A stretch of 64,000 nucleotides of DNA from Eledone cirrhosa (Eukaryota): assembly GCA_964016885.1 (NCBI GenBank), contig OZ024763.1, forward strand, positions 21,018,001 to 21,082,000. The letters run 5' to 3'. The translations under genes and the position numbers were made by a program. A model generated the notes under the pieces. That model did no database searches. It saw only the letters and a list, made by a program, of their open reading frames with translations, and was not told where the DNA came from. Positions 2,421 to 64,000 of this stretch are shown piece by piece; within the stretch, counting starts at the first letter, position 1; the number at the start of each line of letters is the position of its first letter.

Positions 2421-2592
2421 AAAACCTGGTCTATCTACATATACATATATATACACACATATATATATATATATACACATACACATACATACACATACAT
2501 ATTGGTATGTGAAGGGTAAGGCAAAAAGAATATATGCGGGGGGGGGGGGAAGACATAGGAAAAGGTGAAATATAAGGGGAGATAAGGGAGAA

Positions 2593-3879
2593 ATTATCTT
2601 TCATGCTAGAAAAACTTTACTCTTTACTAATGAAAATATTTGGGTTAAAAAGTCAAACCCTGAAAACTCTTTTGATGTTGCAATGGGTTCATATGATAGT
2701 GTGGATGTGTGTGACTTAGTAGGATTATTCCTTCTCCACACCCTCAAAGAGAAATTTCCTTCCCATAATATCGGTTTATACCGTGATGACGGATTAGCAG
2801 TTTCTCATACCACCAACGGCTATAACCTTGATAAATTCCGTAAAGATTTAATCAATACTTTTGCTAATCTTAACCTTAAAATCACTATAGATACGAACCT
2901 TACTAATTCTAACTTTCTTGATATTAATCTTGATCTACTTACCGCCTCTTTTATACCCTATCATAAACCTAATGAAAATCTTAGGTATATACACAAAGAG
3001 TCTTGCCATCCCCCTATAGTTTTTAATAATCTTATTCCTAACATTAGCTGTAGGATTTCTACCTTATCTTCGTCTATAGACATTTTTAATAAAGCCGCCC
3101 CTTATTATAATAAAGCCCTTAAGAACAGCGGCTTTACAGAAAACATTGCTTATTTACCTACTCCCCCCCCCCTAAAACTAACCACAATAACAGGAAAAGG
3201 AAGATTATTTGGTTCATACACCCCTTCTCTCTAACTGTCAAAACTAATGTAGGAAGGAAATTCCTTGAACTATTAGACAAACATTTTCCTCCTAATCATA
3301 GATATTATAAGATACTTAATAGGAACGTAGTTAAGATCAGCTACTCTTGTTGCCCATCTATGAAGTCCAAAATCACCAGTTCAAACCGTACGAGAATAAA
3401 TCCAGGATGCAGTTGCAGGAAGCCGGATGAATGCCCATTGCAGGGTAAATGTAACACCAAATCTGTCGTTTATGAGGCTAAGATAACGCCAGTAATCAAC
3501 AACCAGCCAGCCAGGAGTGAGCGATATGTCGGTATGACCCAGGACAGGTTTAAAACCAGATTTTACTCACATGTCGCTTCTTTTAAGCACTCCGATAAAC
3601 GAACATCAACGGCCCTCGCAAGTAAGGTGTGGGAACTCAAGGATAGTAACATCCCGTACTCTATTGATTGGTCTATCTTTAGACCATTCGAGGGAGTACC
3701 AAAGGGGCACAAAGAATTGTTCTTTGTGTACCACAGAAAAATATAGGATTTTGCTAAACTTGAGAGCCACTTCCGCTTGCCTTAACTCAAAGACTGAGAT
3801 CTTCAGATGCTGTCCTCATCTGAAATCACATCTGATCTGTAACTGGATTGACACTCCTATGATAAATCAACCGCCTTGA
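2593..3879 (+). pseudogene. 5'-truncated Penelope-like retroelement RT + GIY-YIG endonuclease (Naiad-like), two frameshifts
   Basis: FDVAMGSYDSVDVCDLVGL and GLYRDDGL RT motifs; IIWF..PFS..VKTNVGRKFL thumb region; CSCRKPDECPLQGKC linker; VVY...RYVGMT..FKTRFYSH GIY-YIG; C-terminal CSLCTTEK and LNSKTEIFRCCPH. Frameshifts in poly-C at ~3165 and at ~3685. Confidence 0.9.
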
Positions 3880-7657: not shown

Positions 7658-7956
7658 TATATATAGATATATATATATATATATTGTACGACAACTACAC
7701 TGTACCACTTTGACCCCTCTAACTAAATTTTGTCCGAACAACACCACTAGAAGAATCTACTTCCCAGCCAACCTTAGCACGCCTCATTAAGCTAACTGCT
7801 GCCAAAACATTCTCTCTTCACAATCTCTACTAGTCTGAAAGTCTTAAACACTAAGACTCCCTCCACCTTACACACTTCCCTCTTCACCTTCTCTTCCTAC
7901 CTCCTTCTTTATCTTTTATCTAGTGTATAAAATATTTTCATATCATTCTAATACAA

Positions 7957-8073
7957 AGGTCTGATGACATGGTGTGTTGGCTTACAGTGTACTTTCGGTT
8001 TTTGATAATATTTGTGTATTATTCAAATAGCGAGGTATAGGTAACTCATACACTATAGAAACAATTGTTACCT
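7957..8073 (+). ncRNA. Type I hammerhead ribozyme with ~90-nt extended stem II
   Basis: AGGT-CTGATGA-[CATGGTGTGT...ATACACTATA long imperfect hairpin]-GAAAC-AATT-GTT-ACCT followed by AATAAA; stem I AGGT/ACCT, palindromic stem III, GUU site. Confidence 0.7.
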
Positions 8074-8146
8074 AATAAATTCTATATACCCGCATTTCCA
8101 TTTCGTAAATTTTTTCTCCATATATATATATATATATATATATATA

Positions 8147-36268: not shown

Positions 36269-36619
36269 TACAAGATGGATTCAGTAAGAAACTGGTTAGA
36301 CCATTACTCACCAGAGTATTCAATACTTGGAGTAGTAGAGTATGGTTATATGAATGAGCCAGGACCCTGACAGCTGAGCTGTTGCTGTTTCAACAACTTG
36401 TTCCAGACTATATATAGGGAGGAAAAGGAGACATAAAATGATGATGATGATGATATATATATATAGGAAAAGAGTCAGGACCCCGACGGCTGAGCTCTGG
36501 CTGTTTCGACAGCTAGATCCAAACTAAGCTAGACTCTTTTCCTATTACCCACTATACTACCCTAAGTATTGAGTACTCTGGTGTGTTATGGTCCACCTGG
36601 TATCTAACCACACTTTCTT

Positions 36620-36671
<52 letters not shown>

Positions 36672-53605: not shown

Positions 53606-56219
53606 GGGTGTCCCCAAAAATGTATACACACTTCAACAGCATTCTAATAAATATTTCCTGTACAGGTAATGAAAGTGTGTATACATTTTTTTGTGTGTAT
53701 ATATATATACAATATATCAGCTTTAGCCATTTCAACAGCTAGTTCCAGACTCCAGAAATAGCAAGAGCTCAACCATTGGGCCCTGAATCTTTCTAATATA
53801 GTCACACTCTACTATTGCAAGTATTGAGTACTCTGTTGAGTCAATATATTTTTTTATATACTGATATTTTTATTATATATATATATAAGAATTTAGCTTC
53901 AACTTAGCTGTATACAAGCATATATGTGAGTTTCGTATATCTAAAGATATACGGTATGTTTATTAAATGAACATTTTGAAAGCCTCAGCTATGAACAGAA
54001 AACTGGTGGTCAGCACCACTGAATGGTAGCCGGCAGAAGCAAGGGGGATAATTGTCTCTGCATTTTGAACTTAAATGGTTCTCATCAGGACAATGCTTCT
54101 CTCTTCCTACTATCTATCATCATCATCATTATATCAATTGTTCCATGATGTCATAGGCTGGATGGGACTTTTTAAGGCAATGTTTTACAGCCAGATGCCT
54201 TACTTGACACGAACCCTTTGAGTTGCTTCTTATGATAGACAGGGATACAGTGTACCTATTCTAAACAGGATACACACACACGTTCTTTAGGTTTGTCTAT
54301 ATTGTATTCTATATTTTTATGGGTGTTTTACATATATATATTTGACATTGTCATTGTTCTTTCGTTGTTCTTGTGTTATTTATTTAGATCTATTGATTGT
54401 CTTCTGAGTCTGTCTGCATTAGTTTATTATTAATATCTGTAGTAACAAACTGGTTAAGGTTTTCCCCTATTTTCTGTGCAACAGGATAATGGTGGTTGAT
54501 CAGGCAAACTGGATAGCAAATCGCCTATGTCTCATCACCACCACCATCATTATCATCATCATCATCATTATCATATTTAATGCCTGTCTTCCCTGCTATG
54601 TGGAGGCGTGTGGCATAGTAGTAAAGGTGTTGAACTTACGATCATAATGCCATGGGTTTGATTCCTGGACTGGGTTGCATGTTGTGTTCTTGAGCAAAGC
54701 ACTTCATTTCACATTGATCAAGTATACTCAGCTCTAAATGAGTACCAGAAATAACTGGGGGTTTAACCCTGTGCTGGACTGGATTAAAATTATGATGGTA
54801 AGGTTTTTAGATAAATATGAACACTTTAAAATAAATAAGCGAGGCAGTGGGAAGGATGGTCTTATCTAAATATGATATTTGGAATTTTATAGAATAATTT
54901 CTATAAATAGTTTTGTATTATAGAACCAGAGTTAGTTTCAGGCAGTTTGAAACATAAAGGTTCTTACATAAAATTATGATGTAAAGTTTTTAGATTAATA
55001 TAAACACTTTAAATTAAACAATTTGTTGCATAGGACCTGATACAGTTTCTAGGCAGTTTGGAACAAAACAAACTGATACAATTTCAAGTGGTTTTGTATA
55101 AAAAGTGTTAAAACAACTGTGTATTCAAAATTATTGAAATTTTGTTAGGATAATTACTAAATCTGCCGGTGGACTTAGCTGAAGTGATGAAAATAGTGTG
55201 ATTATAATACTGAATAAATTCAACAGTAATTTGATTACAATTGCAAAGATTTTACAATCTAATGGATGGAATAGAAACATTTTTATCTCATTTCCATAAC
55301 CAATTGAAACAATGAGGATACTTGTGGTGATGAATTAATTGTATTTGCTGTGTATATGTGTGTGCATGTGCCTGTATGTGTGTGCATGTGTGTGTGTGTG
55401 TGTGGGGGGGGGCAGTTAAGAACGATGATTCCAGCATATTTTATTAGACTGTAATGACCTGTCCAGACCAAGCCAGAATGGAAGGCAGACATAAAATGAT
55501 GATGGTGATGATGATGATGATGATCATCATCATCATTTTACATCCACTTTTCCATTCTTGCATGGGATGGACAGCTTTTTGTTTTTAAATGCAGCATTCC
55601 TCTATCAGTCACATTCTTTCATCATTTTCTCTCTGAGCTTCAGCAATTTAGTAATTTGAGGTCAGTTCTTACCCTCTCCACTCAGATCTTCCTTTCTTTC
55701 TCTCTACTGCAGCTCCCTATTGGGATTTCTTGGTAGTTCAATCTGTAAAATGGTAGTGCTGGTGTCATGTAGCCTGCACACAGCCCATCTTGTAAAATGT
55801 TAGCATTTGTAGCTCGATAAAATGCACCTAGTCCACTCTGTAAAGTGGTAATGCTAGTGTCATGAAAAATACACCCAGAACATCTTGTAAAGTATTAGTG
55901 TTTGGAGCACAATAAAATGCACCCAGTCCACTCTGTAAAGTGGTACTGTTGGTGTCATGTAAAATTACATGGAACGTCCTGTAAGGTGTTGGTTCCATGA
56001 TAATATGCACCCAGCCCACACTTTAATGTGGTGATTCTGGTGTCATGAAAAATACACCAAGGACATTCTGTAAAGTGTTAGTATTGGTTCCACGATAAAA
56101 TACACCTAGTTCACTCTGTAAAGTGGTGATGCCGGTATCACAAAAAATACACCTAGGACACCTTGTAAAGTGTTAGTCTTTGTAGCACAATAAAATGTAC
56201 CCAGCCCACTCTGGACTAA

Positions 56220-60002: not shown

Positions 60003-60112
60003 ATAGGAAAAGAGTCAGGACCCCGACGGCTGAGCTTCGGCTGTTTTGACAGCTAGATCTAGCTGTCAAAATAACCGGAGCTCAACCGTCAAGGTCCTGA
60101 CTCTTTTCCTAT
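60003..60112. repeat. 110-bp palindrome adjacent to a hammerhead
   Basis: ATAGGAAAAGAGTCAGGACC...ACAGCTAGA|TCTAGCTGT...GGTCCTGACTCTTTTCCTAT; related copy at 36462-36598. Confidence 0.85.
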
Positions 60113-60175
60113 TACCCACTCTATTACCCTAAGTATCGAGTACTCTAGTGCGTTATGGTCCACCTTTATTTCAGG

Positions 60176-60284
60176 TATTGACAATTGTTTCACTGATCAG
60201 GTGAGTCTAGAAGCCGCTAATCGCTCAAAGTTGCGTCACTCGATCTCCATTACATTATTTACCTCTGATCAACTCCTCAGAATA
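60176..60284 (-). ncRNA. Type I hammerhead ribozyme with ~80-nt stem II region (canonical GUC site)
   Basis: Minus strand TATT-CTGAGGA-GTTGATCAG...CTGATCAGT-GAAAC-AATT-GTC-AATA, then CCTGAAATAAA. Confidence 0.8.
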
Positions 60285-60398
60285 TATATATATTTATATA
60301 TATATATATGTATATATATATATAGAGAGAGAGACGTAGAACACTGGAAGGTAATATCCGTAGTGGTAGAGCACTCAGTCCATGGGACGAGTTAGGAA

Positions 60399-60517
60399 GA
60401 AGTGGTAACACAACAGTAAGTTCACCATAACAAGAACAATTGTTTCACCTAATTGTTTCTGCTAAGGTGAAACAATTGTTCTCGGTATGGTGAACTAAGG
60501 GTTGTGTTACCACTTCT
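60399..60517. repeat. Foldback containing two HHR 3' halves (GAAACAATTGTT)
   Basis: AGAAGTGGTAACACAAC..GAACAATTGTTTCACCT / AGGTGAAACAATTGTTC..GTTGTGTTACCACTTCT; the preceding 60337-60395 recurs at 63756-63815. Confidence 0.75.
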
Positions 60518-63705: not shown

Positions 63706-63754
<49 letters not shown>

Positions 63755-63865
63755 GTAGAACACTGGAAGGTAATATCCGTAGGGGTAGAGCACTCAGTCC
63801 ATGGGACGAGTTAGGTAGAAGTGGTGAACTAACTGTTGTGTAACCACTTCTATATACATATATAT

Positions 63866-64000
63866 AATTGTTTCTACTTTAGGCACAAGGCCAGCAACTA
63901 CCCAGTGCATTACTGGTACTTTATTTTATCGACCCCGTAAGGATGAAAGGCAAAGTCAACCTCGGCGGGATTTGAACTCAGATCGTAAAGGGACGTAACT
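63866..64000 (-). mobile_element. SINE family B (runs off the window end)
   Basis: Nearly identical to 5658-5795 and 46278-46415. Confidence 0.9.

What the first reader, a model, noticed from the sequence alone, without database searches (positions are those of the whole stretch)
60003..60284. Stand-alone canonical hammerhead with ~80-nt stem II insertion, AATAAA and a terminal 110-bp foldback
Seen on the minus strand: intact core CUGAGGA/GAAAC, 9-bp basal stem II enclosing a long insert, palindromic stem III (ACAATTGT), GUC site and 4-bp stem I; then AATAAA and a palindrome; the whole unit sits between (AT)n tracts with no ORF. Downstream parts recur at 36462-36600 and more weakly at 36290-36415 and 53720-53840. 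Inference: a small non-autonomous ribozyme-bearing retroelement or a PLE terminus that targets (AT)n.
Basis: partly seen in the sequence, partly recalled or inferred. Interest (0 to 1): 0.7.

Follow-up and report, generated by a model that had tools for sequence, protein, structure and literature searches.

The report
Long-armed hammerhead from Penelope-like retrotransposon
This is a broken-off end of a high-copy jumping gene that carries a predicted self-cutting RNA with an unusually long, conserved arm, joined at this one spot to a folded-back end of a second jumping gene, so it is not a small mobile element of its own.

Summary
The type I hammerhead motif at 60284-60176 (minus strand) is real. 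It is not stand-alone: it is the pseudo-LTR end of a Penelope-like retrotransposon with at least 1,513 copies, whose longer copies encode an RT plus GIY-YIG protein with Hydra-clade motifs and insert in (TA)n. The 'terminal foldback' belongs to a second family. The join occurs once in 3 Gb, and 0 of 59 other foldback loci carry this hammerhead. That second family is also a Penelope-like end, with a predicted U3-A8 variant hammerhead whose decayed 3' half forms the foldback arms. The notable feature is the 78-90 nt stem II domain. It folds as a long hairpin with compensatory changes across subfamilies (6 of 14 insert pairs), whereas published Hydra hammerheads have 3-10 nt loops. Cleavage and expression are untested, and this copy is probably a dead fragment. 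The scan's notes had already recorded long-armed Hydra hammerheads on other DNA of this genome. Verdict: new variant of a known kind, interest 0.4.

The parts
60281..60284 (-). Hammerhead stem I, 5' strand (4 nt); also the 5' truncation point of this copy against the (TA)n tract. The family has a fifth pair that is lost here.
60274..60280 (-). Catalytic core C3-A9 (CUGAGGA)
   Evidence: conserved across subfamilies
60192..60273 (-). 82-nt stem II domain: 9-bp basal stem (60273-60265/60200-60192), A-rich internal loop, inner helix (60253-60241/60216-60205), internal loop and 3-bp terminal hairpin
60180..60191 (-). GAAA, palindromic stem III (predicted 2 bp plus tetraloop as a monomer, 8 bp as a dimer) and predicted cut site after C17 at 60180
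60176..60179 (-). Stem I, 3' strand
60165..60170 (-). AATAAA, part of the family A pseudo-LTR; AATAAA or ATTAAA lies 4-10 nt after the cut site in 7 of 7 subfamily representatives
60164..60165 (-). One-off junction between family A (about 43 nt of its usual 3' end missing) and family F (about 24 nt of its tail missing), at a 2-nt AG microhomology
   Evidence: (loose ends at 60165)
60113..60165 (+).
60003..60112 (.). Foldback: two head-to-head 3' ends of family F, turning at 60057/60058 inside the 3' strand of F's stem II. Each arm holds a decayed 3' half of F's predicted hammerhead, with no 5' core.
60285..60325 (.). Degenerate (TA)n target tract
36462..36625 (+). Separate family F copy with its whole tail; no family A hammerhead
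7957..8075 (+). Related long-armed hammerhead (family G, 90-nt domain II), the end of a very young Hydra-type element

Best explanation
The stretch is a likely inactive chimera of two retrotransposon ends: a truncated pseudo-LTR piece of a high-copy Penelope-like element with Hydra-clade protein motifs (family A), joined at a junction found nowhere else in the genome to a folded-back pair of 3' ends of a second Penelope-like family (F). Shown: family membership, the link to an RT/endonuclease ORF, (TA)n flanks, the two fixed 3' ends of copies, the unique junction, and paired changes in stems I and II and in the insert. Inferred: both pieces were inserted into one (TA)n tract by the elements' endonuclease and RT, and a later deletion at an AG microhomology fused them. 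In the parent element the hammerhead likely cuts the tandem transcript after GUC or GUU, most efficiently as a dimer formed through the palindromic stem III. Genomic copies end 59 or about 223 nt downstream of the cut site, so reverse transcription likely starts internally on uncut (or circularised) RNA. The long stem II arm is kept as a structure, most likely as a handle for the element's own protein; this step is untested.
For: 1,513 exact matches to a 24-nt family A core pattern, control 0. L031 holds two copies of this hammerhead 3,394 bp apart around a broken RT-EN ORF; L100, L102 and L103 have it just 3' of the ORF. The ORF shows RWK, DKT, a CxCx5C linker, CxxC and CxH around the conserved E and N, and no CxxC inside the GIY-YIG core: the Hydra features of PMC8557442 section 11. 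The predicted fold (pLDDT 81) matches RTs including TERT, and Atlas neighbours carry RVT_1 and GIY-YIG. Of 37 family A copies, 19 end at CAC|(TA)n and 9 at a longer tail end; 5 are head-to-head inverted. 33 of 36 other copies continue into family A sequence by a regex test. The junction matches once at up to 1 mismatch, and 0 of 59 other F loci carry a family A-D hammerhead. Covariation on 11 representatives: 15 of 31 pairs change on both sides, insert alone 6 of 14, 0 of 500 shuffles, slid controls 29-43% paired against 89-93%. RNAalifold recovers the insert helices unaided. Stem III scores +2.4 kcal/mol as a monomer hairpin and -6.4 as a duplex. F core TTGATAA in 19 of 25 copies; F linked to a Hydra-type ORF in L261, L222 and L233.
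Against: No cleavage or expression data. The minimum-energy fold of this copy is not the hammerhead (-19.8 against -9.2 kcal/mol). Pfam gives no RT or GIY-YIG hit for the element's own ORF pieces and only sub-threshold hits in 2 of 12 homologues; the PDB sequence search was empty. Clade assignment rests on motifs and by-eye likeness, not on a tree. The structure tested was drawn from these same sequences, the shuffles ignore relatedness, and the compensatory cells come from a few lineages (mainly C, C2, A2). Domain II folding z-scores are modest: -1.4 to -3.1, and +0.2 for C2. RNAalifold did not predict stems I and III. Young subfamily D has U4 changed to C. No intact family A ORF was found. 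Covariation of the F hammerhead was not tested. Deletion and template switch cannot be told apart.
Confidence: 0.8

Rival explanations
1. Same two families, but they were joined during one insertion event, when the RT switched from family F RNA to family A RNA (or the reverse) at the AG microhomology, not by a later deletion.
For: PLE insertions are often complex and inverted (PMC8557442 passages). A family F end is fused directly to a Hydra RT fragment in L198/L262. The junction has a 2-nt microhomology.
Against: Both partners lack exactly the ends that normally face a (TA)n tract, as a deletion across an intervening tract would give. Neighbouring insertions in one tract are common here.
Confidence: 0.15
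2. The motif is a hammerhead-shaped relic that no longer cuts; selection keeps the fold only as a protein-binding or 3'-processing signal.
For: Subfamily D, with copies 99-100% identical, has CCGAAGA and a bulged stem I. Position 10.1-11.1 is unpaired in 6 of 11 representatives. Hammerhead cleavage was not needed for insertion in vitro by an Anolis PLE (PMC11167929 passages).
Against: C3, G5, A6, G8, G12-A14, A15.1 and U16.1 are invariant in 11 of 11 representatives while stem I covaries. U10.1-U11.1 hammerheads are known to cleave (PMC3088659 and PMC7229834 passages).
Confidence: 0.15
3. Hammerhead plus foldback is a small non-autonomous retrozyme-like element in its own right.
For: At this locus the unit lies between (TA) tracts with no ORF. 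Animal retrozymes are proposed to derive from PLE pseudo-LTRs (bioRxiv 10.64898/2026.07.22.740005, part 1 of 5).
Against: The junction is unique; there is no tandem array; 0 of 59 F loci carry the hammerhead; contigs of three public runs leave the window sequence at 60165 and continue into F's own tail.
Confidence: 0.03

Closest known systems
Hydra clade of C-terminal EN+ Penelope-like elements (Craig et al. 2021, PMC8557442; includes Hydra-1_Obim)
   Same: RT then GIY-YIG; RWK, DKT, CxCx5C linker; CxxC and CxH around E and N; no CCHH; (TA)n target; type I hammerhead near the 3' end; U-U at the base of stem II is common in File S2; short stem III.
   Different: All Hydra hammerheads in File S2 have stem II of 3-7 bp and loop 2 of 3-10 nt; these have a 78-90 nt structured domain. 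Repeat unit 3.4 kb against generally under 3 kb. The hammerhead sequence differs from that of Hydra-1_Obim.
Minimal type I hammerheads of metazoan PLEs (Cervera and de la Pena 2014, PMC4209133)
   Same: In pseudo-LTRs, mostly found as single motifs from truncated copies, short stem I, palindromic stem III predicted to work as a dimer; the U3-A8 core variant is described there in Schistosoma and fits family F.
   Different: Helix II there is 6-8 bp with a small loop in the parts read; here it is extended by a conserved 64-nt hairpin.
Non-LTR retrozymes (Cervera and de la Pena 2020, PMC7229834), e.g. axolotl HHR_Amex2
   Same: Type I; 2-bp stem III with tetraloop and U-U at the base of stem II; weak as monomer, better as dimer.
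   Different: Retrozymes are tandem 150-450 bp non-coding repeats. This is a single fragment of a coding element.
Poseidon PLE of Anolis (Frangieh et al. 2024, PMC11167929)
   Same: Two fixed 3' ends downstream of the hammerhead that define an optional tail.
   Different: Different clade; the tail there is 30-40 nt, here about 164 nt (A), 78 nt (F) and about 105 nt (G).

Membership tests
Type I hammerhead ribozyme | Core C3 U4 G5 A6 N7 G8 A9 ... G12 A13 A14, A15.1-U16.1, H17 | tested here: met
   invariant except U4, N7 and A9 in 11 representatives; one of them has G17
Type I hammerhead ribozyme | Three helices, stem I open-ended, supported by covariation | tested here: met
   4 of 5 stem I pairs and 5 of 9 basal stem II pairs change on both sides; stem III never varies in pairing
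Type I hammerhead ribozyme | G10.1-C11.1 pair and loop 1-loop 2 tertiary contact of canonical motifs | tested here: not met
   G-U in this copy, U-U in 18 of 36 others; no small loop 2; no hammerhead family among the 150 listed of 224 Rfam rows
Type I hammerhead ribozyme | Self-cleavage after N17 | not testable with these tools
   needs an in vitro assay
EN+ Penelope-like element | One ORF with RT and C-terminal GIY-YIG endonuclease | tested here: met
   met in other copies, absent from the window fragment; no intact family A ORF found
EN+ Penelope-like element | Partial tandem giving pseudo-LTRs, inverted 5'-truncated copies, optional tail | tested here: met
   L031 tandem; 5 of 37 copies head-to-head; two 3' ends
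Hydra clade | RWK, DKT, CxCx5C linker, CxxC/CxH around E and N, CCHH absent | tested here: met
   read from translations against PMC8557442 section 11
Hydra clade | (TA)n insertion preference | tested here: met
   28 of 37 copies end at one of two fixed points followed by (TA)n
Hydra clade | Phylogenetic placement with published Hydra RTs | not tested
   only by-eye likeness to File S4 and Fig. S7 passages
Non-LTR retrozyme | Tandem short non-coding repeats, each with a hammerhead, spread as a unit | tested here: not met
   single, junction unique; no tandem array here (rows shown end before this region; one search finds one copy)
Naiad/Chlamys PLE | N-terminal endonuclease, DKA motif, no canonical hammerhead | tested here: not met
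   endonuclease is C-terminal and the motif is DKT

The most novel reading that the evidence does not exclude
These elements define a long-armed class of hammerhead in which stem II has become a conserved 60-70 nt RNA domain that the telomerase-related PLE protein binds, coupling RNP assembly to cutting next to a conserved poly(A) signal. Because the spacer exceeds the limits of published searches (7-17 nt, half-cores noted to 35-50 nt in PMC8557442), such ribozymes would be widely missed in animal retroelements.
Probability: 0.3. Interest if true: 0.7.

Novelty: new variant of a known kind. Interest (0 to 1): 0.4.

Why it matters
The locus itself is an ordinary fossil. The family-level result matters for two reasons. 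First, a hammerhead whose stem II is a long hairpin kept by paired changes over divergent subfamilies gives a testable handle on an open question: what PLE hammerheads do and how PLE proteins pick their RNA. Young families D and G supply near-identical templates for that test. Second, short-loop descriptors and Rfam models miss this form, so ribozyme counts in animal genomes are probably low.

Tried and rejected
Rfam scan: no hammerhead among the 150 rows listed of 224 at E up to 1; the miRNA hits are microsatellite or hairpin artefacts. Pfam on five ORF pieces and PDB sequence search: nothing useful. Intact ORFs: G000:C1:386237300-386243000 held only two short G ends in (TA)n. Expression: no RNA holder listed; the three runs laid are contigs of one sample and may be the source of the assembly, so they are not independent and depth is no copy number. 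By eye I rejected a SECIS or kink-turn reading of the insert (spacing does not fit the recalled consensus) and a pseudoknot between the A-rich loop and upstream sequence (no consistent covariation sequences). A dimer partner in cis: the half hammerhead at 60449-60434 has the same palindrome but is buried in its own hairpin. The 'twin hairpin' idea from scan notes: the 60 nt after the second end fold a 6-bp hairpin (-9.9), those after the first only weakly (-5.2); inconclusive. The covariance model could not be run genome-wide, so no census of long-armed motifs exists here. Luense et al. 2017 on PLE hammerhead variants was not held and may describe long stem II variants. The full-text search 'hammerhead + long stem II + Penelope' gave 0 papers; 'cephalopod + hammerhead ribozyme + retrotranspos' listed 2. 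Supplements of PMC4209133 and of the bioRxiv preprint were not seen and may bear on novelty.

Full report
Observation. On the minus strand the window reads (TA)n, a 4-nt stem I strand (60284-60281), CUGAGGA (60280-60274), an 82-nt stem II domain (60273-60192), GAAA, the palindrome ACAAUUGU (60188-60181), C17 (60180), the stem I partner (60179-60176), AATAAA (60170-60165), 52 further bases and a 110-nt foldback (60112-60003; 6 of 55 pairs mismatched). A descriptor for this architecture finds 3 motifs in the window and none in 200 dinucleotide shuffles. Rfam lists no hammerhead among the 150 rows shown of 224.

The hammerhead is a repeat end. A DNA search of the own genome gave 1,721 first-look candidates; the best matches from the 40 scored were 93-97% identical. 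An exact 24-nt family pattern occurs 1,513 times, with 0 for the control. Locus L031 holds two copies 3,394 bp apart in direct orientation around a broken ORF, and L100, L102 and L103 carry the motif just 3' of the same ORF. Among 37 family A copies, 19 end at CAC followed by (TA)n, 9 end about 164 nt further on, and 9 end otherwise. At the 5' side a regex classed 19 as continuing into the pseudo-LTR, 9 as starting at (TA)n, 5 as head-to-head inverted and 4 as other; the query included (TA) flank, so the (TA) class is inflated. This is the anatomy of Penelope-like elements described in PMC8557442 (passages).

The protein. [quoted passage not shown] These are the features listed for the Hydra clade (PMC8557442 section 11), and the sequences resemble the Hydra alignment passages by eye. 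A 631-aa open frame of sister subfamily B (L092; 82% identical in DNA to L031) has 365 homologues at E up to 1e-10 among 7,997 scored, most unnamed; the best named one is a hypothetical protein of Argonauta hians. Its model (pLDDT 81) matches reverse transcriptases including TERT, and Atlas neighbours carry RVT_1 and GIY-YIG. Against this, Pfam finds neither domain in five of the element's own pieces and only sub-threshold hits in 2 of 12 homologues. No tree was built, and no intact family A ORF was found.

The foldback is another family. Searched alone, it gave 5,508 candidates. Its other copies begin with about 24 nt that the window lacks, and contigs of three public runs of one sample leave the window sequence at 60165 into that tail. 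None of 59 other loci of this family carries a family A-D hammerhead, and the 23-nt junction matches once in 3 Gb at up to 1 mismatch. The partners share AG at 60165-60164. Longer copies show the parent, family F: stem I ACCCC/GGGGU, core UUGAUAA (19 of 25 copies; these were picked by likeness to one copy), a 56-nt domain II, a 5-bp stem III with a palindromic loop, and GUC. A U3-A8 core is described for Schistosoma PLEs (PMC4209133, parts 1-2 of 4 read). F follows a Hydra-type endonuclease end in L261, and the same ORF end is continuous with F's upstream sequence in L222 and L233. The window's foldback is two head-to-head F ends that turn inside stem II; both arms lack the 5' core and have G12 changed to A. 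F's fold was not tested for covariation.

The long arm. Sister subfamilies were collected by searches and 11 copies were aligned, chosen by hand from 101 distinct loci to span the variants. On a structure I drew from these sequences, 15 of 31 pairs change on both sides and 89% of cells pair; no shuffle of 500 reaches this, and slid controls pair 30-38%. The insert alone gives 6 of 14 pairs and 93%. RNAalifold predicts the same insert helices unaided but not stems I and III. Caveats: the shuffles ignore relatedness, a few lineages supply most compensatory cells, and single-sequence z-scores run from -3.1 to +0.2. Between seven representatives (21 pairs) identity is 0.80 for C3-A9, 1.0 for GAAA and stem III, 0.61 for domain II, 0.35-0.45 for stem I and 0.57-0.68 for flanks; one representative (E) is a single copy with G17. 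A covariance model found a more distant relative at window 7951-8081 with a 90-nt domain that folds as one long hairpin; the 40 scored copies are identical over 181 bp and lie 3' of a Hydra-type ORF. In File S2 of PMC8557442 every Hydra hammerhead has a loop 2 of 3-10 nt (supplement parts 1-2 and one search read). Full-text searches found no paper on long stem II PLE hammerheads, but Luense et al. 2017 was not available.

How it likely works. Shown: the structure of copies and the conservation above. Inferred from known PLE biology: the endonuclease nicks (TA)n and RT starts at internal sites of the RNA, which explains copies ending 59 or about 223 nt past the cut site (PMC11167929 passages). 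The hammerhead likely trims the tandem transcript. Stem III is unstable alone (+2.4 kcal/mol) and stable as a duplex (-6.4), so cutting is likely weak in monomers and better in dimers, as for the similar axolotl motif (PMC7229834 passages; review PMC6765202 passages). A U-U or G-U at the base of stem II is precedented (PMC3088659 passages). AATAAA or ATTAAA sits 4-10 nt after the cut site in 7 of 7 representatives but not in F; a cut there would remove a poly(A) tail, which is a lead only. The most likely role of the arm is a binding handle for the element's protein; I take this reading from scan notes and did not test it. The window copy keeps the core but has lost a stem I pair, has a private wobble, has no upstream pseudo-LTR and no free partner, and its minimum-energy fold is not the hammerhead. 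It is probably inert.

Verdict. Real motif, wrong unit. PLE-borne hammerheads and the Hydra clade are known; the long, covarying stem II is a variant I could not find in print. The scan had noted it on other DNA of this genome, which is not independent support. New variant of a known kind, interest 0.4.

Noticed in passing
window 7957-8075 (+); L258: Family G long-armed hammerhead (90-nt domain II); the 40 scored copies are identical over 181 bp, so the family is very young; a 5'-truncated Hydra-type ORF without stops lies upstream in L258.
   Followed up: partly
window 60335-60517 (-): Another folded-back PLE-like end with a half hammerhead and the same ACAAUUGU palindrome; run contigs suggest a parent with a short stem II; a second copy lies at 63708-63866.
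   Followed up: partly
L094-L097, L107-L121: Subfamily D has CCGAAGA (U4 to C) and a bulged stem I, yet its copies are 99-100% identical, so it spread recently with an atypical core.
   Followed up: partly
families A-E, G and window 60449-60434: Several families share the same stem III palindrome, so cross-family hammerhead dimers are possible in principle.
   Followed up: no
window 60003-60112: Both foldback arms carry the same G-to-A change at F's G12, which suggests both were copied from one variant template (or parallel CpG decay).
   Followed up: no
window 1384 (-) and 2569-3674 (+): A third hammerhead motif with a 25-nt domain II, and a separate Hydra-type RT/EN fragment.
   Followed up: no
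L032-L105: Many other hammerhead families with domain II of 12-51 nt occur in fetched loci, so arm length varies widely in this genome.
   Followed up: no
L198 / L262: A family F end is fused directly to the middle of a Hydra RT, another chimeric junction.
   Followed up: partly
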